64,000 nucleotides of DNA, from the NCBI GenBank assembly GCA_964525955.1, contig CAZGKJ010000001.1, positions 4,069-68,068 of the forward strand, given 5' to 3'. This document shows, piece after piece, positions 24,978 through 40,059 of the stretch. Below the pieces are notes generated by a model. The model worked only from the letters and a program-made list of their open reading frames with translations. It was not told the origin of the DNA and did not search any database. How positions within the stretch are numbered: position 1 is the first letter of the stretch; every line of letters starts with the position of its first letter. The DNA is from an uncultured Candidatus Bathyarchaeia archaeon (GTDB lineage Archaea > Thermoproteota > Bathyarchaeia > TCS64 > B23). Made by a program: the position numbers and the translations under genes.

Positions 24978-25877
24978 TTAGGGGATTTTGAAGAGGGGGT
25001 GTTCCCTGCTGAGTTTTAGGCCTCCCCTCATCGCTGGGAAGGCGTAGGCGGCGTCCACCATGGCGACGGCTGGATAGACGTAGGGGGCCTCCTCTATCGG
25101 GCCGTAGAGGAGGAAGTCTGCTCCGAGGGCTGCTGCCACGGCGTTGACGGCCGCCACCGCCGGCCTCCTGGCTTTGATCCCCATCTTCTTTTTAAGGCCC
25201 CTCCATAGGCCTATGGCGTTGTGGGGGCCGCATCCGGCTGGTAGTCCCCACTTGGACTTGGCCTCAGGTATGGCTTGGAGGGCTGCTCCGAGGCTTGGTA
25301 TGTCCATCACGAAGGTGTCCAGGATCGGCTTCTCGACGCCGTAATCCTTAATGGTTTCAAGAAGTTTTTGGAGGGCTTTGATCCTGCCGGCTGCGGTGAG
25401 GTCTGAGACGTTGTAGGCGAGGAGGATGGCGCATTCAACCCCCGCATCCCTTATTGCTTCGAGTTCATTCTTCTCACAGCCTGGCAGCAGGGAGTTGTAG
25501 ACGATACGTTTTGTGAGCCCCACCTCCCCAGCCCATTTCAGGGCTTCGATCCTCACCTCCGGCGTTGGCCCGCCGAGGAGTAGGGGCTCATCGGTGACGT
25601 CGGCTGCGAATTCGAGGTATCTCTTCAAGGCCTCGGAGGTTGCTCCCTCCACGTCGAGCATGGAGGGGTTTCCCGTCCGATCTGAGAACTCCTCCTGAAG
25701 CCTTATGAGCTCCTCAGCCTTCTCCTCGTCGAAGACTCCTCGGCGATCATCCTCGACGATCCTATGCTTCTTGTAGAATATTGTGCCTATCAGCACCGTA
25801 GGGTCTCGACCTGGTATCCCACCGACCTTTACTCCTGCGATCTCGAAGATCTTCTGTTCAGCCTCCAGCCTCATCAA
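24978..25877 (-). CDS. MtrH-family methyltransferase (methylcorrinoid:tetrahydromethanopterin/tetrahydrofolate methyltransferase-like)
   Basis: The N-terminal 'FEIAGVKVGGIPGRDPTVLIGTIF' matches the MtrH/pterin-binding methyltransferase signature. It is the last gene of an operon with an MttB-family gene. Confidence 0.7.
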   Translation of the reverse strand: MMRLEAEQKIFEIAGVKVGGIPGRDPTVLIGTIFYKKHRIVEDDRRGVFDEEKAEELIRLQEEFSDRTGNPSMLDVEGATSEALKRYLEFAADVTDEPLLLGGPTPEVRIEALKWAGEVGLTKRIVYNSLLPGCEKNELEAIRDAGVECAILLAYNVSDLTAAGRIKALQKLLETIKDYGVEKPILDTFVMDIPSLGAALQAIPEAKSKWGLPAGCGPHNAIGLWRGLKKKMGIKARRPAVAAVNAVAAALGADFLLYGPIEEAPYVYPAVAMVDAAYAFPAMRGGLKLSREHPLFKIP

Positions 25878-27000
25878 CCTGCTCCACCACCTCGACGCCT
25901 CGCTTATGGAGCTCCATCAGTATCTCCTCGAAGATCCGAGGCTTCAGACCCAGCTTCTCAGGGGGTATCACACCCCTCTCCCCTATTCGCCCCCTCGCCA
26001 ATAGCTGGGCCACTATGGAGGTGGTGTAGCCCGTCGTCCTCGCCATAGCCGTGACGCCTCTCGCCCTGTCGTATCTGTCGAGGAGGTGGAATCTGATGGT
26101 CTTCTCAGCTCCATCCTTCAGACCCTTAACCTCCACCATCATCGCCAGGAGGTCTCCCACCTCCGGCATCCTGAGATGCTTCTCCAGCAGCCTCGCCGTG
26201 AAGCGCTTAGGTGAGACCTTCACCCCCTCAACCTCTATGGGTTCGTCGTCGAAGAGGCCTAGGTCTCTGAGCAGCTTAACCTTCTCCACATGCCCTGGAT
26301 ACCGGAGCGTCTTCTCATACATGCTCTCCACTCCCTTGAAGGTGTCGATGAGGGTTCTCAGGCCATCTGTGTAGAAGGCCTCCAAACGGCCGAGCCCTGG
26401 GAACTCGATCTCCTCGAGGCCGCTGAGAGCTGGAACCTCGACGACTCTGCCTCCCTCGACGATGCGGACGGGCCGCATATACTCGTCGATGAGTCCCTCA
26501 GCAGACCATGTTATCGTATAGCCCAGCGGTGGAACCGGCCTCTCCGGTATGCCTCCGACGAGTATGTGGGCCTCCCTAACCTCGTCGAGCTTCGAGGCCC
26601 CATAGCCCACCAGCATATTCGACAGCCCTGGAGCCACACCGCAGTCGGGGATGAGCGTCATCCCCCTCCGTCGAGCCTCCTCGTCGAGGATCAGCGGATT
26701 CTCAGGTGTGTAGGAGACATCCACCATGTCCACGCCCACCTCGACGGCGGCCTCCATGGCGTTGAAGCCGTAGTCCCCTGGAAGCGCCCCAACGGCGATG
26801 TCGAATCCCCTTAAGGCTTGGGCTATGCTCCCCCTACTTGAGGCGTCGACGGTCATCCACTCCCCGCCGATCTCCCCTGCCACCCGTCGGGCCGCCGTCT
26901 CAAATTTATCTGCGACGGTTATCTCAGCCTCCAGCGACTCGGAGAGGTCTCTGGCGATGGTGGAGCCGATCTTTCCGCAGCCGATGACTATGATTCGCAT
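25858..27000 (-). CDS. Saccharopine-dehydrogenase-family NAD(P)-dependent oxidoreductase
   Basis: An N-terminal Rossmann 'MRIIVIGCGKIGSTIARDL' is followed by a Sacchrp_dh-like C-terminal domain. The likely start is the internal Met at ~27000; the ORF track begins at 27063. Confidence 0.6.
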   Translation of the reverse strand: MRIIVIGCGKIGSTIARDLSESLEAEITVADKFETAARRVAGEIGGEWMTVDASSRGSIAQALRGFDIAVGALPGDYGFNAMEAAVEVGVDMVDVSYTPENPLILDEEARRRGMTLIPDCGVAPGLSNMLVGYGASKLDEVREAHILVGGIPERPVPPLGYTITWSAEGLIDEYMRPVRIVEGGRVVEVPALSGLEEIEFPGLGRLEAFYTDGLRTLIDTFKGVESMYEKTLRYPGHVEKVKLLRDLGLFDDEPIEVEGVKVSPKRFTARLLEKHLRMPEVGDLLAMMVEVKGLKDGAEKTIRFHLLDRYDRARGVTAMARTTGYTTSIVAQLLARGRIGERGVIPPEKLGLKPRIFEEILMELHKRGVEVVEQVDEAGG

Positions 27001-27004
27001 CCCC

Positions 27005-28462
27005 TCACACCTCCGACCTCTCAAGGTTGTATCTTTTGAAGATGGAGTTGAGCACCTCCTCAAGCGCCTGTGCCCTCTCCTCCGGCATCGGCTTGGGCTG
27101 ATGCTCCCTCAGCAGCCTCTCCACCCGTTCCTTGGCCCTGGTGATGATGTCCTTTGATCCGGCTTTCTTCCAGGCGTCTATGGTGAGTCTGCAGACCACA
27201 TCTGAGGGGATATATCTCTCTCTTCTGAAGTGCTTCATCGTATGCCTCTCACCCAGATAGTGGCCTCCTGGGCCCACCTTCTCTATGACGTCCAGAGCCA
27301 GGGTCTCCTCATCGACATCTATGCCCTCTAGGAGCCTATAGGCCATGGCGCACAGCTCGTCGTCGATGACAAGCTTCTCCAGGGACTGACAGTTCTCCTC
27401 AACCAGCATACCTGGGCCTGAGACTACGTTTACTCCCGTCAGCGCAGCCATCAAGATGCCGAGGGCTGACTCAAAGCAGCTCTGCCCGTCGACGACCTTT
27501 GAGTCGCTTAGGCCGAGGTATCCATGGGTTGGGAGTCCATAGTATTTCCCGATCTCGGCTCCTGCGCAGGCCGTCATCATCGCCTCTATGGCTCCAAGCC
27601 TCGCTGTGGCGTATCTCATGTCGAAGAGTGTTGGGGAGCCGCCGTAGACGATGGGTGTCCCAGCCCTCCTGAGCTGGGTGATGACGATGCCGGTGATGAT
27701 CTCAGCGTTCGACTGGACGAGGGTTCCGGCGAGGGTGGCGGGGCTTGTCGCCCCTATCTGAGGCGCCGGAATGATCTCAGCCGGTATCCCCCTGTCGGCG
27801 AGGTCTATGAGGTTTTGAGCCGTTACGTCGCCCCAGATGAGCGGTGATGTGGGGCAGCAGTCGAAGATGGCTCTGGGTCTGCGTCTCAACTCCTCTGGGC
27901 CTCCTACGGCTGCGTTTAGCATCTCAGCCATATCGATGAGGCCTCTCTTCGAGAATGCCCCGGTGATGATGGGCTTATCAGAATTCCTCAAAACGATATA
28001 CAGCCTATAGAGGTCTGCAACCACCTCTGGGACGTCTGAGGGGACGATGGCTGTGCTCTGAGCCTCGATGTGTTCAAGGGCATCGGCCAATCGCACCAGC
28101 TTCTCCAAGTCTCTTGAGGTTCCCCTCCTTATCTCTCCGGTCTCTGAGTCTAAGACGTATATGGCTGCTGAGCCTGGGTTGTAGACGACGTTGTCTCCTC
28201 CGATTAGGAGGGTCTTATCCCCGTCTCTGCTGTATAGCTCGATTTCGGATGGAGCCTTCTTCAGGCATTCAGTCGCCAGCTCCTCGGGTATCTTCACCCG
28301 TCTATCCTCCACTTCGCATCCATTTTCCCCAAGCAGTTTCAGGGCGTTTTCGTTTCTAACCTCTACGCCGACCCTCTCCAGAATCCTCATGGTTGAGGAG
28401 TGTATCTCCTCTATCTCCTCCCTCTCCAGAAGTCTGAATCCCCTAACCATGTCCTTCATCAA
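27005..28462 (-). CDS. MttB-superfamily methyltransferase (non-pyrrolysine quaternary-amine/trimethylamine:corrinoid methyltransferase-like)
   Basis: 485 aa with an MttB-like N-terminus ('...LLEREEIEEIHSSTMRILERVGVEV...') and a TIM-barrel body. The ORF is continuous with no in-frame TAG, so it belongs to the non-Pyl branch (MtgB/MtcB/MtpB-like). Confidence 0.7.
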   Translation of the reverse strand: MMKDMVRGFRLLEREEIEEIHSSTMRILERVGVEVRNENALKLLGENGCEVEDRRVKIPEELATECLKKAPSEIELYSRDGDKTLLIGGDNVVYNPGSAAIYVLDSETGEIRRGTSRDLEKLVRLADALEHIEAQSTAIVPSDVPEVVADLYRLYIVLRNSDKPIITGAFSKRGLIDMAEMLNAAVGGPEELRRRPRAIFDCCPTSPLIWGDVTAQNLIDLADRGIPAEIIPAPQIGATSPATLAGTLVQSNAEIITGIVITQLRRAGTPIVYGGSPTLFDMRYATARLGAIEAMMTACAGAEIGKYYGLPTHGYLGLSDSKVVDGQSCFESALGILMAALTGVNVVSGPGMLVEENCQSLEKLVIDDELCAMAYRLLEGIDVDEETLALDVIEKVGPGGHYLGERHTMKHFRRERYIPSDVVCRLTIDAWKKAGSKDIITRAKERVERLLREHQPKPMPEERAQALEEVLNSIFKRYNLERSEV

Positions 28463-28787
28463 TCTGCTCTCTAATCAATTAAGTTTGACGATAACCTCTC
28501 CAGTTGAGTATGAAGGGGTGGGGTCTCCATCACATCGCCCTGCATAGGCGTGGGATTTAGGGTGACGCTCTGGAAATAACTTTAAGTGTGAAGCTATACT
28601 TCTAGGCACCCACTCCCCTTAATTAGGAGCTGTTGTGAAACGCTTCTAAAAATGGTTGATATGCGAACTCTTAACGAGTTATTCTGGCCCTTTCCGTTCT
28701 GAATCTGACCAACTGGACTAATTCGTGGTAGAGGTTTTTAATGTCACTTGGATTTAACCCTAGAGGTTGAAGTATGTATTTCTCCAT

Positions 28788-31658
28788 CTAATATCTGACG
28801 GGATTTCGGGCTTCATGCTCTATATCCATGGGCCTCATCGAGAGAAGCTTTTCAACGGTCTCTAAGAAGTCTCTCGTTTCTCCTCTTCTATCCAACTCGT
28901 CTCGAAGCCATAGAGGATCTATAACAGGTATGCATTCATAGTCTATTACGTTAACGTCTAGAGCACCTTGACCAAGGTTTGTTCGACCGATAACCTCCAT
29001 ACTAGTGTAGGTGGTTATAGAGTTTAATGTAGCAAAGATGAAGCGTGGGTCTAGACTCTTATACTTATCTTTTAACCTTCCTCCGAAAAATCTCTTGTCT
29101 ATCTGCGCACCAGTAATATTGTTCATGTATATTGCGAAATTCTTGTGAATTGCATTTTTAAATATGAACATCGCTCCAGAGGTATCTGGCAATCTAACCC
29201 ACGTCGGCTCATCTATATATTTGACGATGGTTGGGAACCTCCTATTTGTTTTATGTTCTTCGATCACGAATCTATGGCACCATTCCACATAACGTTTAAT
29301 ACCAGGTGCATCTACATCATTAATATTCCCTACCCATATAACGTAATCATCCCTTCTCCGTCTAGGAAGTCTATCTATCCTATAAGTTGAACCTCGAATA
29401 TGTGCGAGTCTCATAAGAGGTCTTAAATACCGTTTTTCCAGCTTCAAAAGTGTTCTAGATATAACACTTTTAAGCTCTAGATAGTTTTCGTCCTCCCTAT
29501 AATACCTCCAGTACTTCGATGGGAGATAGAATAGTTCATTCGCATTAGTAGTGAGTCCTCGATATATTTCAAGCACATCTTTCAATAACACCATTGGTAT
29601 TTCATCTCTGATAAAACCGAATATAAGATTGAGGTATGTTTTTGATCCTCTGAATATACCCCACTTCCCTAGCCTCTCTTCAATCTCCTGAAGGGCTCTC
29701 TTTCTAACGGCTATAACTCTCATATCCTCATTCTCTAGGATCGAATAATTTTCAGCTTCGAGACTACACGAGTCTGCATAAGAGTAAAGACCCTCTATTC
29801 CCTCATAATACCTCTCGTTAGCTGTATAGTCCACAGATGGAGGTGGATCTCCTATTAAGCTTCGCAGAGGCTTCTTAAGGAAGATGAACCTTAATACATG
29901 ATCTGGACTCCTATCTTTTTCAGCAACTATGATATTAGTTATTATCTCAGCATCTTCAAACCACTTCTCAACAAGTGACTCCACAACATAGTGGATCATG
30001 AAGTTTTCCATAAGCCATCTCTTTAAAGGCGAACCATACTCAGCGTTCATCCAAGAGTTTTCAACTATAAACCCTAGTCTCCCCCCTTCCTCCAGTAGTT
30101 TCCCCCCTCCAACTAGGAAGTAAGCGTATATCGAAGCCTTCTTGCTCCAGCCTGAGATATCTGATACCGCCTTCATGAGATACTCCTTATATCTTCTGTC
30201 GTAAAACGCCATAGCCATCTCCTCTTGTCTGGTATACGGTGGATTGGTGACGACATAACTGTACCCTGGGGGGAGCTCTATTTTGAAGAAGTCGCCGTGA
30301 TGAATCTTAGGAGTATACCTGTACATTTTCTTAATCTCTTCAAGTGCTTGAATGTATAGGTTGATCTTGGAGAGCATGGAAGCTAGCTTATCTATGTCAA
30401 TCCCCTCAACGAACTCGAAGACATCCCTCTCTAAACCATATTTTATTCTCCAGAGGTTTAAAGCTCTGACCAGGAAAGTGCCAGAACCACAGGCTAGATC
30501 TAAAATGCGACCAGGTTTATCTAATGTAGCTGTGAGTATGAGGTCTACGATCTTTGTGTCTGTGTAATGCTGCCCTAAAAGATGTCTCCTCTCTTCATAA
30601 ATCAGCCCCTCGAAAATCCTACCGATCACGTCTACGTTTATCTCGCCCCACCGTATCTGATTAAGATAGGAGAGGAGTTGTTTTATCGATGATAAGGAAG
30701 GCTCTACGATAGGAAGTCTATCCACAACATTTGTGCCAAATATCTCCTCAAAGTCGCCGGTTCTCTCAATCGCATACTCAAATAACATATCGAATATTTT
30801 CTTAAATAGCTGTGCATCCGATATGTCGCCTATGGAGGAAAGGTTTTCACGTAGTTTAGCAGCCATTTCAGCATCTATACTTTGAAGCACCATATAGAAG
30901 AGCATTTTAAGCGATAAAGTGTAAAGCTGTTCCTTCAACATCAACATAAGATAGTTCCGAAGCTCGGAGTCATTTCGAGGGCTTTCAAGCCCCCTTTCCT
31001 TTCGCCAACTCTCAAAGCACTTTCTCACCTCTAATTCGCTTCGATATAAATACTCAAGCCTGGTTAACCCCCGTGATGCTCCCTCCTCAATATACCTTCT
31101 TATAGTATAGATAACCTCCGTGCTTAGATCAAGTGTTTTCCCTTCAAGGATTTCCCTAAACCTAAGTAAGAACATTTCAAGATTCCTTCTGGCTTCTCTA
31201 TTCACAGATATCTGCTTATAATCATTTATTGACCTAACCCATGGCATTATCTGAAATGGAAAATCAGAAACAGGAACCCAAATCCTTGTACGCCTCCCAT
31301 GAATATACTCCAAAAGAGTAGGTTGACGCTTCCTAAAAGTAATATATCTGAAGACTTTCAAATATCGCATGTTATGTGTCGCATAAAACTGTAAACCCAT
31401 GTTCTTCCTATACCATTCAGCATATCTTAAAGCCTGCTCGTTCAACTCAGGATCACTTAGTAGAATTTCCGGTCTCTTAACCTCGATCACAGCCACGGGT
31501 TCACCCTTATAGTAAAGTTTAACGTCAGGCTTACCGGAAGGGGTGCGCCAGTTGGCTTCGGCATCAAAGCCTAAACCTTCTCCTACTTCCTTAATAACAG
31601 AGATGAGTTCCGTTACATAGGTCTCTTCTGTAGGCTCCTCAACCATAATATTCAACAA
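28788..31658 (-). CDS. Type IIG restriction-modification enzyme (fused PD-(D/E)xK endonuclease + gamma-class N6-adenine DNA methyltransferase + TRD; MmeI-like)
   Basis: The N-terminus has 'GKPDVKLYYKGEPVAVIEVKRPE' (PD...EVK nuclease motif). The central MTase has motif I 'LDLACGSGTFL' and motif IV 'VVTNPPYT'. The 956-aa single polypeptide is markedly more AT-rich than its flanks. Confidence 0.75.
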   Translation of the reverse strand: MLNIMVEEPTEETYVTELISVIKEVGEGLGFDAEANWRTPSGKPDVKLYYKGEPVAVIEVKRPEILLSDPELNEQALRYAEWYRKNMGLQFYATHNMRYLKVFRYITFRKRQPTLLEYIHGRRTRIWVPVSDFPFQIMPWVRSINDYKQISVNREARRNLEMFLLRFREILEGKTLDLSTEVIYTIRRYIEEGASRGLTRLEYLYRSELEVRKCFESWRKERGLESPRNDSELRNYLMLMLKEQLYTLSLKMLFYMVLQSIDAEMAAKLRENLSSIGDISDAQLFKKIFDMLFEYAIERTGDFEEIFGTNVVDRLPIVEPSLSSIKQLLSYLNQIRWGEINVDVIGRIFEGLIYEERRHLLGQHYTDTKIVDLILTATLDKPGRILDLACGSGTFLVRALNLWRIKYGLERDVFEFVEGIDIDKLASMLSKINLYIQALEEIKKMYRYTPKIHHGDFFKIELPPGYSYVVTNPPYTRQEEMAMAFYDRRYKEYLMKAVSDISGWSKKASIYAYFLVGGGKLLEEGGRLGFIVENSWMNAEYGSPLKRWLMENFMIHYVVESLVEKWFEDAEIITNIIVAEKDRSPDHVLRFIFLKKPLRSLIGDPPPSVDYTANERYYEGIEGLYSYADSCSLEAENYSILENEDMRVIAVRKRALQEIEERLGKWGIFRGSKTYLNLIFGFIRDEIPMVLLKDVLEIYRGLTTNANELFYLPSKYWRYYREDENYLELKSVISRTLLKLEKRYLRPLMRLAHIRGSTYRIDRLPRRRRDDYVIWVGNINDVDAPGIKRYVEWCHRFVIEEHKTNRRFPTIVKYIDEPTWVRLPDTSGAMFIFKNAIHKNFAIYMNNITGAQIDKRFFGGRLKDKYKSLDPRFIFATLNSITTYTSMEVIGRTNLGQGALDVNVIDYECIPVIDPLWLRDELDRRGETRDFLETVEKLLSMRPMDIEHEARNPVRY

Positions 31659-31753
31659 TCATTAACTAAATACAACTTATAAACTAATCCAAATCGCCCT
31701 CCCTTGCTAAGGGTGTAAAGCCTAGCCTAAATAGAGGGAAAATTCTGGGGCCT

Positions 31754-32500
31754 TCATACTCCTATGCAGGGCGCCAGGTAGTAGATGAGCTTCCCCTTCG
31801 GTATCTCGAAGTTCAGCTTGATGGGCATATCCGTTGAGAGCTCCAGTGTGGCTACCTCGCTGGAGGCTGAGGCCGCATTTATGATGTCTTGGAGGTAGCT
31901 TAGGGTGAAGGTGGCTGAGCTCGGCTCCTCCACCTTCAGCTCCAATAGGTCTTCGGCCTCGAGTGTCCAGACGCTGGAGACGCTTCCGATGTCGCCCTCG
32001 GCGCTGATCTTGAATTCCTCCTCGTTGATCTCCAGCTTCACATGCTCCCCGACGAGGGAGGCATCCTTAATCGCCCTCTTCAGGCTTGGGGTCAGTATCC
32101 TCGCTGAGGCTTTGAAGAATATCTTCGGCGTCGGGGTCTCCTCTTCCAGGGGTTCGAGGAGGGGCATGAGGAATCTCCGCTTGTGGCCTCCCCTCATACA
32201 CTCTATGGAGAGCCTCCCCTCCTGGAGGGTCATCTTAACCTGCTCCCCCCTCTCAACCCTGTCGAGGAATTTCAGGAGCTCCCTTATGTTGACGGTCAGC
32301 CTCGTCTCCTCATCGCAGAGATATTCATCGAAGAAGTCCCTCGGCAATTCGAAGTCCACCATGGCGACGTGGCTTGGATCCATGGCGAGGAGCTTCATCT
32401 CCTCCTCATCGATGTTGAAGCTCCCCTCCTCCACGATGACGGAGAGGGCCTTAACGAGCCTCTTGAAGGCGTCTATGCTGGAGAGCTGAACCTCGAACAA
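31754..32500 (-). CDS. pcna: DNA polymerase sliding clamp PCNA
   Basis: A 248-aa protein with PCNA-like N- and C-terminal domains ('MFEVQLSSIDAFKRLVKALSVIVEEGSFNIDEEEMKL...'). Confidence 0.85.
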   Translation of the reverse strand: MFEVQLSSIDAFKRLVKALSVIVEEGSFNIDEEEMKLLAMDPSHVAMVDFELPRDFFDEYLCDEETRLTVNIRELLKFLDRVERGEQVKMTLQEGRLSIECMRGGHKRRFLMPLLEPLEEETPTPKIFFKASARILTPSLKRAIKDASLVGEHVKLEINEEEFKISAEGDIGSVSSVWTLEAEDLLELKVEEPSSATFTLSYLQDIINAASASSEVATLELSTDMPIKLNFEIPKGKLIYYLAPCIGV

Positions 32501-32929: not shown

Positions 32930-33454
32930 TTAAGTCTTTTGATCGAGGGCTGAGGCTATAATCCCCGCAACCCTCAAGGCCTCCGGCATCTCCTCCCCCT
33001 CCCTCGTCGCAACCCTGAGGATCGAGGCGGCCTCCCTGCTTCTGAGACCTATTGAGAGAACCCTTAGCCTTCGACACCCCAGCTTCATCTCGAAGTCTAT
33101 CGAGTATATCCCCTCCGGAGGCTGGGGCCATGAAGAATCTATGGATAAGGCGATGACGGGCCTCTCAGCCTCCCTGCACAGCCTATATGGATTCAGCCTT
33201 AGACCTCCGAGGAGCTCCTGGTGGAGGGTGATAACCCTGATCTGGGGGTGGTGGCTTGACCCCCTGATCATCTCCACAACTCTCTGGGTTGGGTCGGCTT
33301 CTCCTCCCTGGATGTTTGTGGCGATGACTCCGTCAAGCCATAGGGAGCCTCTGTAGATGACTCCCACAACGGTTTGAGGCTCCCCCCTCTTCTTGGAGGC
33401 GATGCCTAAAACCCTTATTTCCCTCTTAACCTTCCTAATCCTCGCTATCTCCAT
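32930..33454 (-). CDS. DUF99/UPF0215-family protein
   Basis: 'VLGIASKKRGEPQTVVGVIYRGSLWLDGV' resembles the DUF99 N-terminal pattern. Confidence 0.45.
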   Translation of the reverse strand: MEIARIRKVKREIRVLGIASKKRGEPQTVVGVIYRGSLWLDGVIATNIQGGEADPTQRVVEMIRGSSHHPQIRVITLHQELLGGLRLNPYRLCREAERPVIALSIDSSWPQPPEGIYSIDFEMKLGCRRLRVLSIGLRSREAASILRVATREGEEMPEALRVAGIIASALDQKT

Positions 33455-37469: not shown

Positions 37470-37771
37470 GTCATATGCCTCCTGAGGTGCTCCGGCCTGG
37501 CGATGATGAGCTTCACCCTCTTCCTCTGCGGTATCTCTATGACGTAGGCCTTCCCACGCTTCTCCACTATGGTTCCAACTCTACCCTGGTATCTCCTGTG
37601 GGGCATACCCTTGTGAACCGTTGGGTTGATGTCTATGATGACCCGTTCTCCTATCTCATAGCTCTCCAGAAGCCTGCTGAGGGGTATCTTACCCCTCTCC
37701 CGAATGGGTTTGCGGAGCTTCCTCCTCGTCTTCCTCCTCGGCCCCTTAGAGTGCCTCCCCATCTCCATCAT
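37466..37771 (-). CDS. rpl21e: Ribosomal protein L21e
   Basis: 'MMEMGRHSKGPRRKTRRKL...' is the L21e N-terminus. Confidence 0.85.
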   Translation of the reverse strand: MMEMGRHSKGPRRKTRRKLRKPIRERGKIPLSRLLESYEIGERVIIDINPTVHKGMPHRRYQGRVGTIVEKRGKAYVIEIPQRKRVKLIIARPEHLRRHMT

Positions 37772-39093
37772 CCTAACCTGAATCGTTGAAGCTGTCTGAG
37801 GAGTCTACCCCTACCCCTCAGCTGCTTCAGCATCTTTCTCATGGCGTTATACTGTTTTATAAGTTCTCTCACATCCCTCTCCTCCGTCCCGCTTCCCCTG
37901 GCTATACGCCTGATCCTGGAGGCGTTGAGTATGCGTGGATTCTCCCTCTCCTCAGGGGTCATAGACTGTATTATGACCCTCCACTTATCGAGGCGCTCCT
38001 CGGCTACGTCGAAGACATCGCTGGGGAGCTCGTAGCCGAAGCCTGGGAGCATGGAGATTACCCTCCTCAGGGATCCAAGCTTCCTCATAGCCTCAAGCTG
38101 TCCATATAGGTCTTCGAGGGTGAACTTCCCTGAGAGGATGGCCATCGCATCCCGCTCCGAGACCTCAAGCTCAGCCTCCCTCACCCTCTTAACGAGGCCC
38201 TCTATATCTCCCATGCCGAGGAGGCGCCCTATAAATCTCGGCGGATCAAATGGTTCGAGGTCTTCGACGTCCTCGCCGGTTCCTATGAATTTTATAGGTG
38301 CCCCCGTGACTGCGACGCTTGATAGGGCTCCTCCCCCTCTCGCTGAGCCGTCGAGCTTTGCTACGATTATAGACCCTATATCTGTGGCTTCCTTGAAGGC
38401 CCTCGCCTGGGAGGCCGCCTGCTGCCCTATGGTGGCGTCGATGACGAGGATGACCTCCCTCGGCTTGACTGCCTCAGCCATCCTCCGCATCTCATCGAGG
38501 AGGGGCTTCTCCTCCTTATGCCTCCCAGAGGTGTCGATGATGACCGCTTCATGATCCCTGAAATGCTCCACGCCCCTCCTGGCGATCTCTATGGGGTCTC
38601 GGCATGTTGGGTCTCCGTAGAAGTCGACATTTATCCTCTCGGCGAGCTGTTTGAGCTGCTCGTAGGCTCCAGGTCTGAAGGTGTCTGCGCATATCAGCGC
38701 CGTCTTGAATCCCCTCTTCTGCAGATATCTCGCCAGCTTCGCCGCCGTGGTCGTCTTCCCCGAGCCCTGGATCCCTATGAGCATGTAGATGTTCTGGGCT
38801 CCAGGTTTGAGGTTTAGGGGTTGGGGCTTCTCCCCCACCAATCTCGTCAGCTCGTCGTATATGACTCTGATGAGATGCTCCCTCCGGCTTATTCCTGGGG
38901 GGAGCTCCTCGAAGGCCCTCTCCTCTATCCGCTGGGAGAGCTCGAAGACGAGGCGGACATCGACATCCGCCTGGAGGAGGGCCCGCTGGAAATCCCTTAT
39001 GAGCGCCTTAACTACCTCCCTATCAACCGTTGGAGCTCTAAGCATCCTCTTTATGGCGTCGTAGAGCGATGAACCCAGCTTCTCCAGCACCAT
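37768..39093 (-). CDS. srp54: Signal recognition particle protein SRP54
   Basis: An NG domain with 'GIQGSGKTTTAAKLA' and 'DTSGR', plus a C-terminal M domain. Confidence 0.9.
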   Translation of the reverse strand: MVLEKLGSSLYDAIKRMLRAPTVDREVVKALIRDFQRALLQADVDVRLVFELSQRIEERAFEELPPGISRREHLIRVIYDELTRLVGEKPQPLNLKPGAQNIYMLIGIQGSGKTTTAAKLARYLQKRGFKTALICADTFRPGAYEQLKQLAERINVDFYGDPTCRDPIEIARRGVEHFRDHEAVIIDTSGRHKEEKPLLDEMRRMAEAVKPREVILVIDATIGQQAASQARAFKEATDIGSIIVAKLDGSARGGGALSSVAVTGAPIKFIGTGEDVEDLEPFDPPRFIGRLLGMGDIEGLVKRVREAELEVSERDAMAILSGKFTLEDLYGQLEAMRKLGSLRRVISMLPGFGYELPSDVFDVAEERLDKWRVIIQSMTPEERENPRILNASRIRRIARGSGTEERDVRELIKQYNAMRKMLKQLRGRGRLLRQLQRFRLG

Positions 39094-39108: not shown

Positions 39109-40059
39109 CTAATCTCCCTCACCTTCATGTAAAGGTTGCTCAACCCTCTCCAGGGCGGCCGCAACTATCAGGGGGAAGAGAACAGTCGCATCGCCGTAGA
39201 CGTCGACGATGCATTCTCCCTTAACCTTCCCCCAGCTGATGGCCTCTCTAAGCGGCGCCCCGCTTAGGCTTCCATCCTCAGCCCTGGCGGTTGTGATCTG
39301 AACCGCCGCGTCGAGGCCTCCCCTCAGCGTATTCATGTATAGGGTGTGATGCTTTGGGACGCCCCCGCCGAGGATGATTGCCCCCGCCTTCCTGGCGTCG
39401 TAGACCAGCTCTGCGAAGTGCTCGAAGTCCTTGAGGGGGTTTATTCTGAGCGTCCTCCGCTGGGAGTACACCCATAGGGGTATCCCAATCATGGAGTCTA
39501 ATAGGGCTGGGCTGAAGATTGGGACATCCCTCAGGGCGGCGCATCTCAGAATAGAGTCCTCATCCCTCAGCCTCAACCCGATCTCATGTAGAAGACCCCA
39601 TATCGAGGTCTCTCTACGCTTCTCCTCGGGTATTTCGTCGAGGATTTCATAGAGGAAGCGTTCAAGCTCCTGGAAGATCTTAACCTCTATGTAGATGTCG
39701 TAGGCCCTTGAGATCCCCCTCTCCCTAAGCCTCTCATCGTCGGCCTCTGGGCTTCCGGATCGATGTTCACCTCCCATCGCCTCTATCAGGTCGTGGACCA
39801 GGTTTGCCCCGCTGGTTACGACGGCGTCTATGTAGCCTCCCCTTATCAGGTCTGAGATGATTAGGCGTAGTCCAGCTGGGACGAGGGGGCCTGATAGGGA
39901 GAGGAAGGTGGTGTAGTCCTCGTCGCTGAACATCTCAGCCACTATCTCCACGGCCCTCGCAACCCTTCCAGCCCCTATTACCCCCGCCCTTCCGAGCTCC
40001 TCAGCTAATCTACCCACGGTCATTCCAGCTCTGAGGCGTATTGGTTGGATCCTCCTCAT
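39109..40059 (-). CDS. dys: Deoxyhypusine synthase
   Basis: Overall similarity ('...YIDAVVTSGANLVHDLIEAMG...GGGVPKHH...'), and the gene lies directly upstream of its substrate aIF5A. Confidence 0.8.
   Translation of the reverse strand: MRRIQPIRLRAGMTVGRLAEELGRAGVIGAGRVARAVEIVAEMFSDEDYTTFLSLSGPLVPAGLRLIISDLIRGGYIDAVVTSGANLVHDLIEAMGGEHRSGSPEADDERLRERGISRAYDIYIEVKIFQELERFLYEILDEIPEEKRRETSIWGLLHEIGLRLRDEDSILRCAALRDVPIFSPALLDSMIGIPLWVYSQRRTLRINPLKDFEHFAELVYDARKAGAIILGGGVPKHHTLYMNTLRGGLDAAVQITTARAEDGSLSGAPLREAISWGKVKGECIVDVYGDATVLFPLIVAAALERVEQPLHEGEGD

What the first reader, a model, noticed from the sequence alone, without database searches (positions are those of the whole stretch)
28463..31753. 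AT-rich single-gene island carrying an MmeI-like Type IIG restriction-modification enzyme, inserted between the MttB operon and PCNA
The 2.9-kb gene and both flanking spacers are visibly AT-rich relative to the ~60% GC background (runs such as 'AAATATGAACATCGC', 'TTTTTAATGTCACTT'). The protein fuses a PD-(D/E)xK nuclease, an NPPY gamma-class adenine methyltransferase and a C-terminal TRD. This combination indicates horizontally acquired defence. The 325-bp upstream and 95-bp downstream spacers are non-coding and could hold integration scars.
Basis: seen in the sequence. Interest (0 to 1): 0.55.

Follow-up and report, generated by a model that had tools for sequence, protein, structure and literature searches.

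The report
Acquired restriction-methylase gene, recently truncated
A Bathyarchaeia archaeon picked up a single foreign gene for a combined DNA-cutting and DNA-methylating defence enzyme between its PCNA and MttB genes, and a one-base change has since cut off the enzyme's conserved tail; this is an ordinary, well-understood kind of event.

Summary
Window 28463-31753 is 41.3% GC against 56.7% for the rest (z about -15), the only such dip in 64 kb. The gene's GC3 is 0.42 against 0.60-0.84 for every host gene.

Three related Bathyarchaeota genomes (flanks 86-88% identical in DNA) have PCNA directly next to MttB. So the roughly 3.2-kb segment (about 28510-31693) is a lineage-specific insertion.

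It carries one minus-strand gene for a Type IIG restriction-modification fusion:
- an N-terminal PD-x13-ExK nuclease (D41/E55/K57)
- a helical connector
- a gamma-class N6-adenine methyltransferase (DLACGSGTF, then NPPY)
- a C-terminal target-recognition domain

It is not an MmeI-family member. No MmeI_N, hel, TRD or C Pfam domain matches in 45 relatives, and the best structural match is BpuSI. It belongs to a large, uncharacterised, mostly archaeal family of about 990 aa from 40-46% GC hosts, with no conserved partner gene.

- The gene has an in-frame TAG (28788-28790) where the closest relative has GAG. The conserved last 38 codons (28674-28787) lie in the "non-coding" spacer.
- TAG is a normal stop in this host, so this is a recent nonsense mutation that probably impairs the enzyme.
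- A 16-nt inverted copy of the PCNA 3' end marks the far junction.

No integrase or tRNA is present.

The parts
28510..31693 (-). Inserted low-GC segment (the island). Each boundary is good to about 20 bp.
   Evidence: blastn of the relatives L003-L005 against the window breaks at 31756 and resumes at 28494-28509. Spacer alignments carry ancestral similarity to about 31694 and from about 28509. GC is 41% against 57%.
28791..31646 (-). Open part of the Type IIG restriction-modification gene: 952 codons from the ATG at 31644-31646, ending before the TAG.
   Evidence: ORF list and translation. It is identical to P0001, 952 aa. Pfam finds N6_Mtase and Eco57I. PADLOC REase_MTase_IIG scores 1.4e-32.
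31242..31646 (-). N-terminal PD-(D/E)xK nuclease domain (about aa 1-135). The catalytic motif P40-D41...E55-V-K57 lies at 31476-31529.
   Evidence: D41, E55 and K57 are invariant in 45 family members. The family profile aligns 'aD...EvK' to BpuSI residues 51-126, where D60 and E76 were the sites mutated to verify catalysis (PMC3185434). HSDR_N or HSDR_N_2 Pfam hits occur in 13-15 of the 45 members.
30648..31229 (-). All-helical connector between nuclease and methyltransferase (about aa 140-333).
   Evidence: The AlphaFold model of the 78%-identical P0002 shows helices 144-330. The same arrangement occurs in BpuSI, residues 175-289.
29847..30641 (-). Gamma-class N6-adenine DNA methyltransferase domain (about aa 336-600). 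Motif I LDLACGSGTF is at 30474-30503. Motif IV TNPPYTRQ is at 30225-30248.
   Evidence: Pfam N6_Mtase 2.4e-21 and Eco57I 5.2e-20. PDB profile hits are M.BseCI 4.4e-21 and StySJI HsdM 2e-15. Motif I precedes NPPY.
28791..29846 (-). C-terminal target-recognition region (about aa 601-952).
   Evidence: Foldseek aligns the methyltransferase plus C-terminal domain to CamA and M.BseCI (TM-score 0.69-0.76 on the target for the DNA-bound entries) and to BpuSI over the full length. The profile aligns positions 744-937 to the M.BseCI C-terminal domain.
28788..28790 (-). In-frame TAG (codon 953), a nonsense mutation. The closest relative's gene has GAG here.
   Evidence: The same TAG is present in two other assemblies, L001 and L002. 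TAG ends 12 of 59 host ORFs. One of these separates deoxyhypusine synthase from the in-frame SRP54 gene.
28674..28787 (-). Orphaned tail of 38 codons: MEKYILQPLGLNPSDIKNLYHELVQLVRFRTERARITR. The original TAA stop is at 28671-28673.
   Evidence: The tail is present in 42 of 44 homologues down to 26% identity. In the model it forms two confident helices, 947-960 and 964-986. Its dN against the L010 gene is 0.129, against 0.131 for the body.
31676..31683 (-). Candidate TATA box TTTATAAG of the incoming gene, about 30 nt upstream of the ATG.
   Evidence: DNA similarity to the relative's contig L010 begins here (window 31685) and ends at the stop codon. Its promoter role is inferred.
28552..28670 (-). 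3' flank of unknown origin that came in with the gene. It contains a T5 run (28649-28653), a candidate archaeal terminator, about 20 nt after the original stop.
   Evidence: Sequence. No similarity was found to L010, to host relatives, or elsewhere in the window.
28536..28551 (+). 16-nt copy of the PCNA 3' end (CGCCCTGCATAGGCGT), inverted relative to the PCNA gene, at the distal junction. Its partner is at 31758-31773.
   Evidence: the repeat finder pair I2, 15 of 16 complementary. It matches the PCNA end of relative L003 at 16 of 16. The 13-mer core occurs only at these two places in 64 kb, against 0.14 expected.
28463..28509 (-). Retained ancestral PCNA-MttB spacer with the conserved MttB promoter region (ATCGTCAAACTTAATTGATTAGAGAG...).
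   Evidence: Positions 28463-28493 are 31 of 31 identical to L005, and the alignment is conserved across L003-L005.

Best explanation
A cassette of about 3.2 kb was inserted between PCNA and the MttB promoter in one Bathyarchaeia lineage. It runs from a TATA box to the stop codon plus about 120 bp of 3' flank, and it came from a lower-GC archaeon. It carries no mobility gene.

The cassette encodes a solitary Type IIG restriction-modification enzyme. The mechanism below is inferred from characterised relatives:
- The C-terminal TRD reads a short, probably asymmetric site.
- The NPPY domain uses SAM to make N6-methyladenine on host DNA.
- The N-terminal PD-ExK domain cuts unmethylated incoming DNA at a fixed distance from the site.

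The architecture is that of BpuSI. The lone-gene lifestyle is that of MmeI and TkoI/TkoII.

After arrival, a single G-to-T change (GAG to TAG) removed the last 38 residues, a two-helix element conserved across the family. The copy is therefore probably impaired or inactive and at the start of decay.

Shown: the insertion, its foreign origin, the domain content, the nonsense codon and its recency.
Inferred: enzymatic activity, loss of function, and the insertion mechanism.
For: - Composition.
- Empty sites: PCNA is followed directly by MttB across an 80-90 bp spacer in L003, L004 and L005. Flanking proteins are mostly 90-94% identical (the MttB fragment in L005 86%, Endo_dU about 74%), and flanking DNA is 86-88% identical.
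- Donor-like GC: the family gene is 36-43% GC, in contigs whose flanks are mostly 40-46% GC. DNA homology to L010 runs only from 31685 to 28682.
- Domains: Pfam, PADLOC IIG 1.4e-32, profile against PDB, AlphaFold model with pLDDT 87 and pTM 0.80. Foldseek ranks BpuSI first at 1.2e-23 and full length, then CamA and M.BseCI.
- Conservation: all 57 invariant family residues are kept.
- Solitary: six homologue contexts show no shared partner methyltransferase or S gene.
- Nonsense codon. The tail is present in 42 of 44 relatives. Tail dN equals body dN. TAG is a normal stop in this host.
- Not an assembly error: the same allele occurs in a second strain that differs by 16 SNPs over 17.3 kb, none of them in the island.
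- Precedents: lone archaeal Type IIG/IIL enzymes TkoI and TkoII (PMC8172983). RM genes flanked by repeats and inserting without mobility genes (PMC2853133).
Against: - No enzymatic or methylome data exist, and no characterised member of this exact family was found, so both specificity and activity are inferred.
- The truncated protein keeps every catalytic motif and might still work.
- The insertion mechanism is unknown. There is no integrase, transposase, tRNA or clear direct repeat.
- Only three empty-site genomes were available, and all are MAGs.
Confidence: 0.8

Rival explanations
1. The gene is a fully working lone restriction-modification system. The last 38 residues are dispensable, so the TAG is just a new, harmless stop.
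For: All 57 invariant residues and all catalytic motifs are intact. The allele is shared by two strains. The residue at the mutated position varies across the family.
Against: The tail is retained in 42 of 44 relatives down to 26% identity, with near-invariant G and R positions. It is modelled as two confident helices. Its dN equals that of the body, so it was under the same constraint until very recently.
Confidence: 0.25
2. The TAG is decoded, either as pyrrolysine (the gene sits next to an MttB-family gene) or by read-through. Alternatively, the tail is made separately from the ATG that directly follows the TAG. Either way the cell still gets a complete enzyme.
For: The frame stays open for exactly the 38 conserved codons, and TAG is followed immediately by ATG. 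The neighbouring gene belongs to the family that is famous for pyrrolysine.
Against: TAG terminates 12 of 59 long ORFs here (20%). One of these lies between deoxyhypusine synthase and the in-frame SRP54 gene, which must be separate proteins. The host MttB is a full-length ORF with no internal TAG, so it is a non-Pyl type. The closest relative has plain GAG.
Confidence: 0.04
3. The gene is ancestral at this site and was deleted independently, or once, in the relatives. It is not an acquisition.
For: Only three empty-site genomes were available, and they could share one deletion.
Against: GC is 41% and GC3 0.42 in a 57% GC, GC3 about 0.7 genome, with no amelioration. The nearest homologues are in unrelated low-GC archaea. 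An extra 3' flank and an inverted copy of the target are present at the junction. The island shows no SNPs between the two strains.
Confidence: 0.03
4. It is not a restriction enzyme. It would instead be an orphan or regulatory methyltransferase, or a stray component of a multi-gene system (BREX PglX, MADS Mad2, Type I HsdM), as public annotation ('HsdM family methyltransferase') suggests.
For: There are weak NCBIfam and PADLOC hits to MAD2 and PglX, confined to the methyltransferase core. Sources name the homologues HsdM or N-6 DNA methylase.
Against: All those hits score far below the curated cut-offs, for example 35.9 bits against 720 for MAD2. An invariant PD-ExK nuclease motif aligns to the BpuSI catalytic site. 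No BREX, MADS, HsdS or HsdR neighbours appear here or in six other loci.
Confidence: 0.05

Closest known systems
RM.BpuSI (Bacillus pumilus; PDB 3S1S), a Type IIS/C/G enzyme
   Same: - It is the best full-length structural match (Foldseek E 1.2e-23).
- It has the same domain order: PD-x(n)-ExK nuclease, helical connector, M.TaqI-like gamma N6A methyltransferase, and a TRD with an inserted domain.
- The nuclease motif aligns by profile.
   Different: - Sequence identity is only about 14%.
- BpuSI works alongside two separate methyltransferases, M1 and M2 (PMC3185434). This gene is solitary here and in six other loci.
- This family is about 110 aa longer and mostly archaeal.
MmeI family (Type IIL; PDB 5HR4)
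   Same: - Single-polypeptide nuclease, methyltransferase and TRD.
- A solitary gene with no partner methyltransferase.
- A PD-ExK motif near the N-terminus and an NPPY motif.
   Different: - Pfam MmeI_N, MmeI_hel, MmeI_TRD and MmeI_C are absent in all 45 family members. MmeI_Mtase matches only weakly: 23.8 bits against a cut-off of 27 for P0002.
- Foldseek E is 3e-14, rank 41.
- The PDB profile hit covers the methyltransferase core only.
TkoI / TkoII of Thermococcus kodakarensis (characterised archaeal Type IIG/IIL)
   Same: Archaeal, solitary fused PD-ExK, FxGxG and NPPY enzymes that methylate one strand and restrict DNA (PMC8172983). They are the best functional precedent.
   Different: They are 1282 and 1125 aa, against about 990 aa here.
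Mobile RM gene units described by Furuta, Abe and Kobayashi 2010
   Same: An RM gene inserted into a conserved gene neighbourhood, with an empty site in relatives and flanking repeats, including inverted ones (PMC2853133).
   Different: Here the repeat is short (16 nt) and is an inverted copy of the host target (the PCNA 3' end), not a terminal repeat of the element. No clear target duplication was found.

Membership tests
Type IIG restriction-modification enzyme (nuclease-methyltransferase fusion) | PD-(D/E)xK nuclease domain in the same polypeptide | tested here: met
   P40-D41-x13-E55-V-K57 is invariant in 45 relatives. The profile aligns it to the BpuSI nuclease. BpuSI is the top full-length Foldseek hit.
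Type IIG restriction-modification enzyme (nuclease-methyltransferase fusion) | Gamma-class N6-adenine methyltransferase (motif I before NPPY) | tested here: met
   DLACGSGTF lies at aa 382-391 and TNPPY at 467-471. Pfam N6_Mtase and Eco57I match above their cut-offs.
Type IIG restriction-modification enzyme (nuclease-methyltransferase fusion) | Own target-recognition domain C-terminal of the methyltransferase | tested here: met
   Foldseek aligns the methyltransferase plus C-terminal domain to CamA and M.BseCI, with target TM-score 0.69-0.76 for the DNA-bound entries. The profile also hits the M.BseCI C-terminal domain. In the window copy, the terminal two helices are cut off.
Type IIG restriction-modification enzyme (nuclease-methyltransferase fusion) | SAM-dependent or SAM-stimulated cleavage at a fixed distance from the site, and methylation of the same site | not testable with these tools
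   This needs purified protein or methylome data.
MmeI family (Type IIL) | MmeI-specific N-terminal, helical, TRD and C-terminal domains (Pfam MmeI_N, MmeI_hel, MmeI_TRD, MmeI_C) | tested here: not met
   No hit in the window protein or in any of the 45 family members at E up to 0.01.
MmeI family (Type IIL) | MmeI-type methyltransferase domain (PF20473) above the curated threshold | tested here: inconclusive
   There is no hit for the window protein. P0002 scores 23.8 bits against a cut-off of 27. All 45 members match weakly, with a best E of 7.9e-12.
MmeI family (Type IIL) | Solitary gene with no companion methyltransferase | tested here: met
   It is a single-gene insertion here. No conserved neighbour appears in L010-L015.
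MmeI family (Type IIL) | Lone-strand methylation for host protection | not testable with these tools
   This needs SMRT or Nanopore methylome data.
BpuSI-like Type IIG system | Five-domain BpuSI architecture | tested here: met
   Foldseek ranks it first, with 1048 aligned columns. The model's domain order matches the published BpuSI domains.
BpuSI-like Type IIG system | Companion methyltransferases (M1, M2) in the locus | tested here: not met
   No methyltransferase gene lies next to it here or in six homologue loci.
BREX (PglX) / MADS (Mad2) / Type I (HsdM) component | Score above the family's curated cut-off, plus the partner genes of the system nearby | tested here: not met
   Scores are far below cut-off: MAD2 35.9 against 720 bits, PglX 31 against 500, hsdM 17 against 242.75. 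The neighbours are PCNA, TFS, MttB, a saccharopine-dehydrogenase-like gene and MtrH.
Horizontally acquired genomic island | Composition and codon usage deviate from the host | tested here: met
   z = -15 and GC3 0.42 against 0.60-0.84.
Horizontally acquired genomic island | Empty site in close relatives | tested here: met
   L003, L004 and L005 have PCNA and MttB adjacent.
Horizontally acquired genomic island | Mobility gene, tRNA target or flanking direct repeats | tested here: not met
   There is no integrase or transposase ORF. The only tRNA in the window is at 1439-1513. No significant direct repeat flanks the island; only a 16-nt inverted repeat does. Integrases do sit near homologues in L012 and L015.

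The most novel reading that the evidence does not exclude
A bare 'promoter-to-stop' Type IIG cassette entered a housekeeping spacer without any recombinase. It left an inverted 16-nt copy of the adjacent PCNA gene end, a fold-back or template-switch repair signature. This would point to a break-repair, homing-like route by which single-gene restriction-modification enzymes spread between distant archaeal phyla. Alternatively, the TAG-ATG junction could yield a working two-piece enzyme.
Probability: 0.08. Interest if true: 0.5.

Novelty: new member of a known kind. Interest (0 to 1): 0.22.

Why it matters
This is a clean, datable example of inter-lineage transfer of a defence gene into an uncultured Bathyarchaeia genome. 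It has base-level junctions, an empty site in relatives, and the first step of gene decay caught in the act.

It also corrects likely annotation. Sources call the family 'HsdM family methyltransferase', but it has an invariant nuclease motif.

The family has more than 700 detectable relatives, mostly archaeal, including Saccharolobus, Staphylothermus and Thermococcus, and this search found no characterised member. It could therefore be a source of new, possibly thermostable Type IIG specificities.

None of this challenges current understanding.

Tried and rejected
- **Pyrrolysine or read-through at the TAG.** Rejected on stop-codon usage (12 of 59 ORFs end in TAG) and on the TAG between the DS and SRP54 genes.
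- **Intact (GAG) alleles or more island carriers.** An exact-pattern scan of JGI metagenomes across the TAG site found nothing. A protein-based metagenome scan found only relatives at 61% identity or less. The question of polymorphism remains open.
- **Viral carriage.** No relative was found in IMG/VR.
- **Context of the Saccharolobus islandicus homologue P0078.** Not on record.
- **Target-site duplication.** Both junction spacers resemble the ancestral spacer around 'ACTCAACGAGGGATGGGAT', but the two copies are too diverged to support a direct duplication. Left as unproven.
- **Other short inverted matches.** The 11-nt pair at 28506 / 31751 and the 12-nt pair at 28389 / 31635 are within chance expectation for a 3.6-kb region.
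- **Flanking repeats at another single-gene insertion of the family (L013).** None comparable.
- **Rfam and tRNA scans of the spacers.** Nothing found.
- **Specificity prediction.** Not possible without REBASE.
Full report

Yes. Window 28463-31753 has 41.3% GC against 56.7% for the rest of the 64 kb. No other window of the same length falls below 54.0%, which gives z = -15.

The region holds one long ORF on the minus strand, 28788..31658. Its real ATG is at 31644-31646, giving 952 aa identical to database protein P0001. Its third-position GC is 0.423, while the other 58 long ORFs of the window range from 0.596 to 0.843.

- MttB-family methyltransferase at 27005-28462, followed by a saccharopine-dehydrogenase-like gene and an MtrH-like gene.
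- PCNA at 31754-32500, preceded by TFS, an Endo_dU protein, RpoL and an exosome subunit.

Both quoted AT-rich strings are present.

**2. Is it an insertion?**

Yes. The host is a Bathyarchaeia MAG. A genome-collection scan with PCNA returned three close relatives: L003 (JAGHBJ010000045), L004 (CALEIY010000017) and L005 (JAPDJB010000016). Their flanking proteins are mostly 90-94% identical and their flanking DNA is 86-88% identical. In all three, PCNA is followed directly by MttB across an 80-90 bp spacer.

The breakpoints were located as follows:
- blastn against these genomes stops at window 31756 and resumes at 28494-28509.
- Spacer alignments carry recognisable ancestral sequence to about 31694 on the PCNA side and from about 28509 on the MttB side.
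- The MttB promoter-proximal sequence is intact: 28463-28493 is 31 of 31 identical to L005.

The inserted piece is therefore about 28510-31693.

Its nearest relative at the DNA level is contig L010, which encodes P0002 (78% amino-acid identity). It matches only from window 31685, just upstream of a shared TTTATAAG box, to 28682, just before the original stop. What moved is essentially a promoter-to-stop cassette plus about 120 bp of unrelated 3' flank.

Family members sit in contigs whose flanks are mostly 40-46% GC, and are themselves 36-43% GC. The island therefore still has the composition of its donors.

A second assembly of the same organism (L001) differs from the window at 16 positions in 17.3 kb. 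None of them lies in the island.

**3. What is the gene?**

Sequence evidence:
- Pfam finds only N6_Mtase and Eco57I, at aa 342-588 of the 956-aa ORF.
- PADLOC's best model is a Type IIG REase-MTase, at 1.4e-32.
- NCBIfam hits to MAD2, PglX and HsdM fall far below their cut-offs.

A database search gave 724 relatives, mostly archaeal where a source names the organism. Named sources include Bathyarchaeota, Thermoprotei, Heimdallarchaeaceae, Nanopusillaceae, Staphylothermus, Conexivisphaera, Thermococcus and Saccharolobus islandicus. Most are 986-1005 aa, and their sources label them HsdM or N-6 methylase.

In a 45-sequence alignment (A3), the invariant columns include D41, E55 and K57 (motif PD-x13-ExK), the motif I residues, and N-P-P-Y. 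The window protein keeps all 57 invariant residues.

A profile of A3 against the PDB hits M.BseCI, Type I HsdM proteins, RM.BsaXI, PglX, BpuSI, DrdV and MmeI. The BpuSI hit includes the nuclease segment 'aD...EvK'. That segment holds D60 and E76, the residues mutated to verify catalysis in BpuSI (PMC3185434).

An AlphaFold model of P0002 built from A3 is confident, with pLDDT 87 and pTM 0.80. Foldseek against the PDB gives this ranking:
- BpuSI first, over the whole length, at E 1.2e-23.
- CamA and M.BseCI next, matching the methyltransferase plus recognition domain (TM-score about 0.7 on the target for the DNA-bound entries).
- BrxX, MmeI and PglX near 1e-14.

The protein is therefore a Type IIG fusion: nuclease, helical connector, gamma N6-adenine methyltransferase and TRD.

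**4. Is it 'MmeI-like'?**

In lifestyle, yes. In membership, no. None of MmeI_N, MmeI_hel, MmeI_TRD or MmeI_C matches the window protein or any of the 45 relatives, and MmeI_Mtase matches only weakly. The fold is closest to BpuSI.

BpuSI, however, comes with two separate methyltransferases. This gene is alone here and has no conserved neighbour in six other loci.

The contexts of the homologues vary:
- L012 and L015 place it near tyrosine integrases.
- L013 shows another single-gene placement among pterin-biosynthesis genes.

Solitary archaeal fusions of this kind have been shown experimentally to methylate one strand and to restrict DNA (TkoI and TkoII, PMC8172983). Type IIG genes occur at nearly one per archaeal genome (PMC10609329).

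**5.

Relatives continue about 38-50 residues past the window protein's end, with a conserved motif (xMEExxLxxLGLSxxDIxxLYxELxxLVxxRxERA) present in 42 of 44 sequences.

In the window, the stop at 28788-28790 is TAG where L010 has GAG. The next 38 codons (28674-28787) read MEKYILQPLGLNPSDIKNLYHELVQLVRFRTERARITR in frame, ending at TAA 28671-28673. A T5 run follows about 20 nt later.

So 114 bp of the '325-bp non-coding spacer' is displaced coding sequence.

The same TAG is present in L001 and in an independent Logan assembly, L002, so it is not an assembly error.

Recoding is unlikely, for three reasons:
- TAG ends 12 of 59 long ORFs.
- One TAG separates the deoxyhypusine synthase gene from the in-frame SRP54 gene.
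- The neighbouring MttB has no internal TAG.

The tail's nonsynonymous divergence from L010 (0.129) equals that of the body (0.131, with dN/dS about 0.06). The mutation is therefore recent relative to the split from L010's gene.

In the model the tail forms two confident helices, 947-960 and 964-986. I infer, but could not verify on coordinates, that they complete the helical frame holding the TRD against the methyltransferase, and that their loss impairs the enzyme. Because the nuclease and methyltransferase sit in one chain, a single mutation can inactivate both without killing the host.

**6. Junction scar.**

The 16-mer CGCCCTGCATAGGCGT at 28536-28551 on the plus strand is the exact 3' end of PCNA as found in L003 (16 of 16). 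It is 15 of 16 complementary to the window's own PCNA end at 31758-31773, so it is an inverted copy of the target. Its 13-nt core occurs only at these two places in the window, against 0.14 expected.

No tRNA, Rfam family, integrase or convincing direct repeat is present. RM genes flanked by direct or inverted repeats, inserted without mobility genes, have been catalogued before (PMC2853133). The mechanism here is unknown. Fold-back or template-switch repair of a break is my guess.

**7. Verdict.**

This is a real, recently acquired, single-gene Type IIG restriction-modification island. Its architecture is BpuSI-like and its organisation is solitary like MmeI and TkoI/TkoII. It is not an MmeI-family member, and it carries a fresh nonsense mutation that probably cripples it.

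It is a new member of a known kind, useful mainly as a tidy example and as an annotation correction. Interest is low (0.22).

Noticed in passing
window 28536-28551 (+) and 31758-31773: A 16-nt inverted copy of the PCNA 3' coding end lies at the far junction of the island. It matches the relatives' PCNA end (GGCGT) better than the window's own (GGAGT). The mechanism is unknown.
   Followed up: partly
window 24978-28462 (-); L004 8869-12343: A conserved three-gene cluster: an MttB-family methyltransferase with no internal TAG (non-pyrrolysine type), a saccharopine-dehydrogenase-like protein and an MtrH-like methyltransferase. It could be a quaternary-amine or methylamine demethylation module in Bathyarchaeia.
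   Followed up: no
window 32930-33454 (-); L003 8741-9220, L004 7083-7604: The Endo_dU-family protein is only about 74% identical to its orthologues in the two close relatives that hold the gene in full (L003, L004). Its neighbours (ECR1, RpoL, TFS, PCNA) are 91-94% identical. It is a locally fast-evolving gene.
   Followed up: no
window 39109-40059 and 37768-39093 (-): Deoxyhypusine synthase ends in TAG and is in frame with the downstream SRP54 gene, 15 nt away. This was used only as evidence that TAG is a genuine stop in this host.
   Followed up: yes
L012 4582-5898, L015 1183-2316, L013 9183-9876: Homologues of the RM gene sit near tyrosine integrases in two loci. In a third locus the homologue is a lone gene next to a PIN/MazE toxin-antitoxin pair among pterin-biosynthesis genes. 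The family appears to travel both on integrative elements and as a bare gene.
   Followed up: partly
window 28389-28400 (+) and 31635-31646: A 12-nt perfect inverted match (ATGGTTGAGGAG) links the RM gene's start codon region and the antisense strand of the MttB 5' coding region. It is within chance expectation for the region (about 0.4 expected).
   Followed up: partly
window 37885-38068 (-), from L001 against the window: 10 of the 16 SNPs between the two assemblies of this organism cluster within about 180 bp inside the SRP54 gene. This may be a small recombination tract or a mis-assembly.
   Followed up: no
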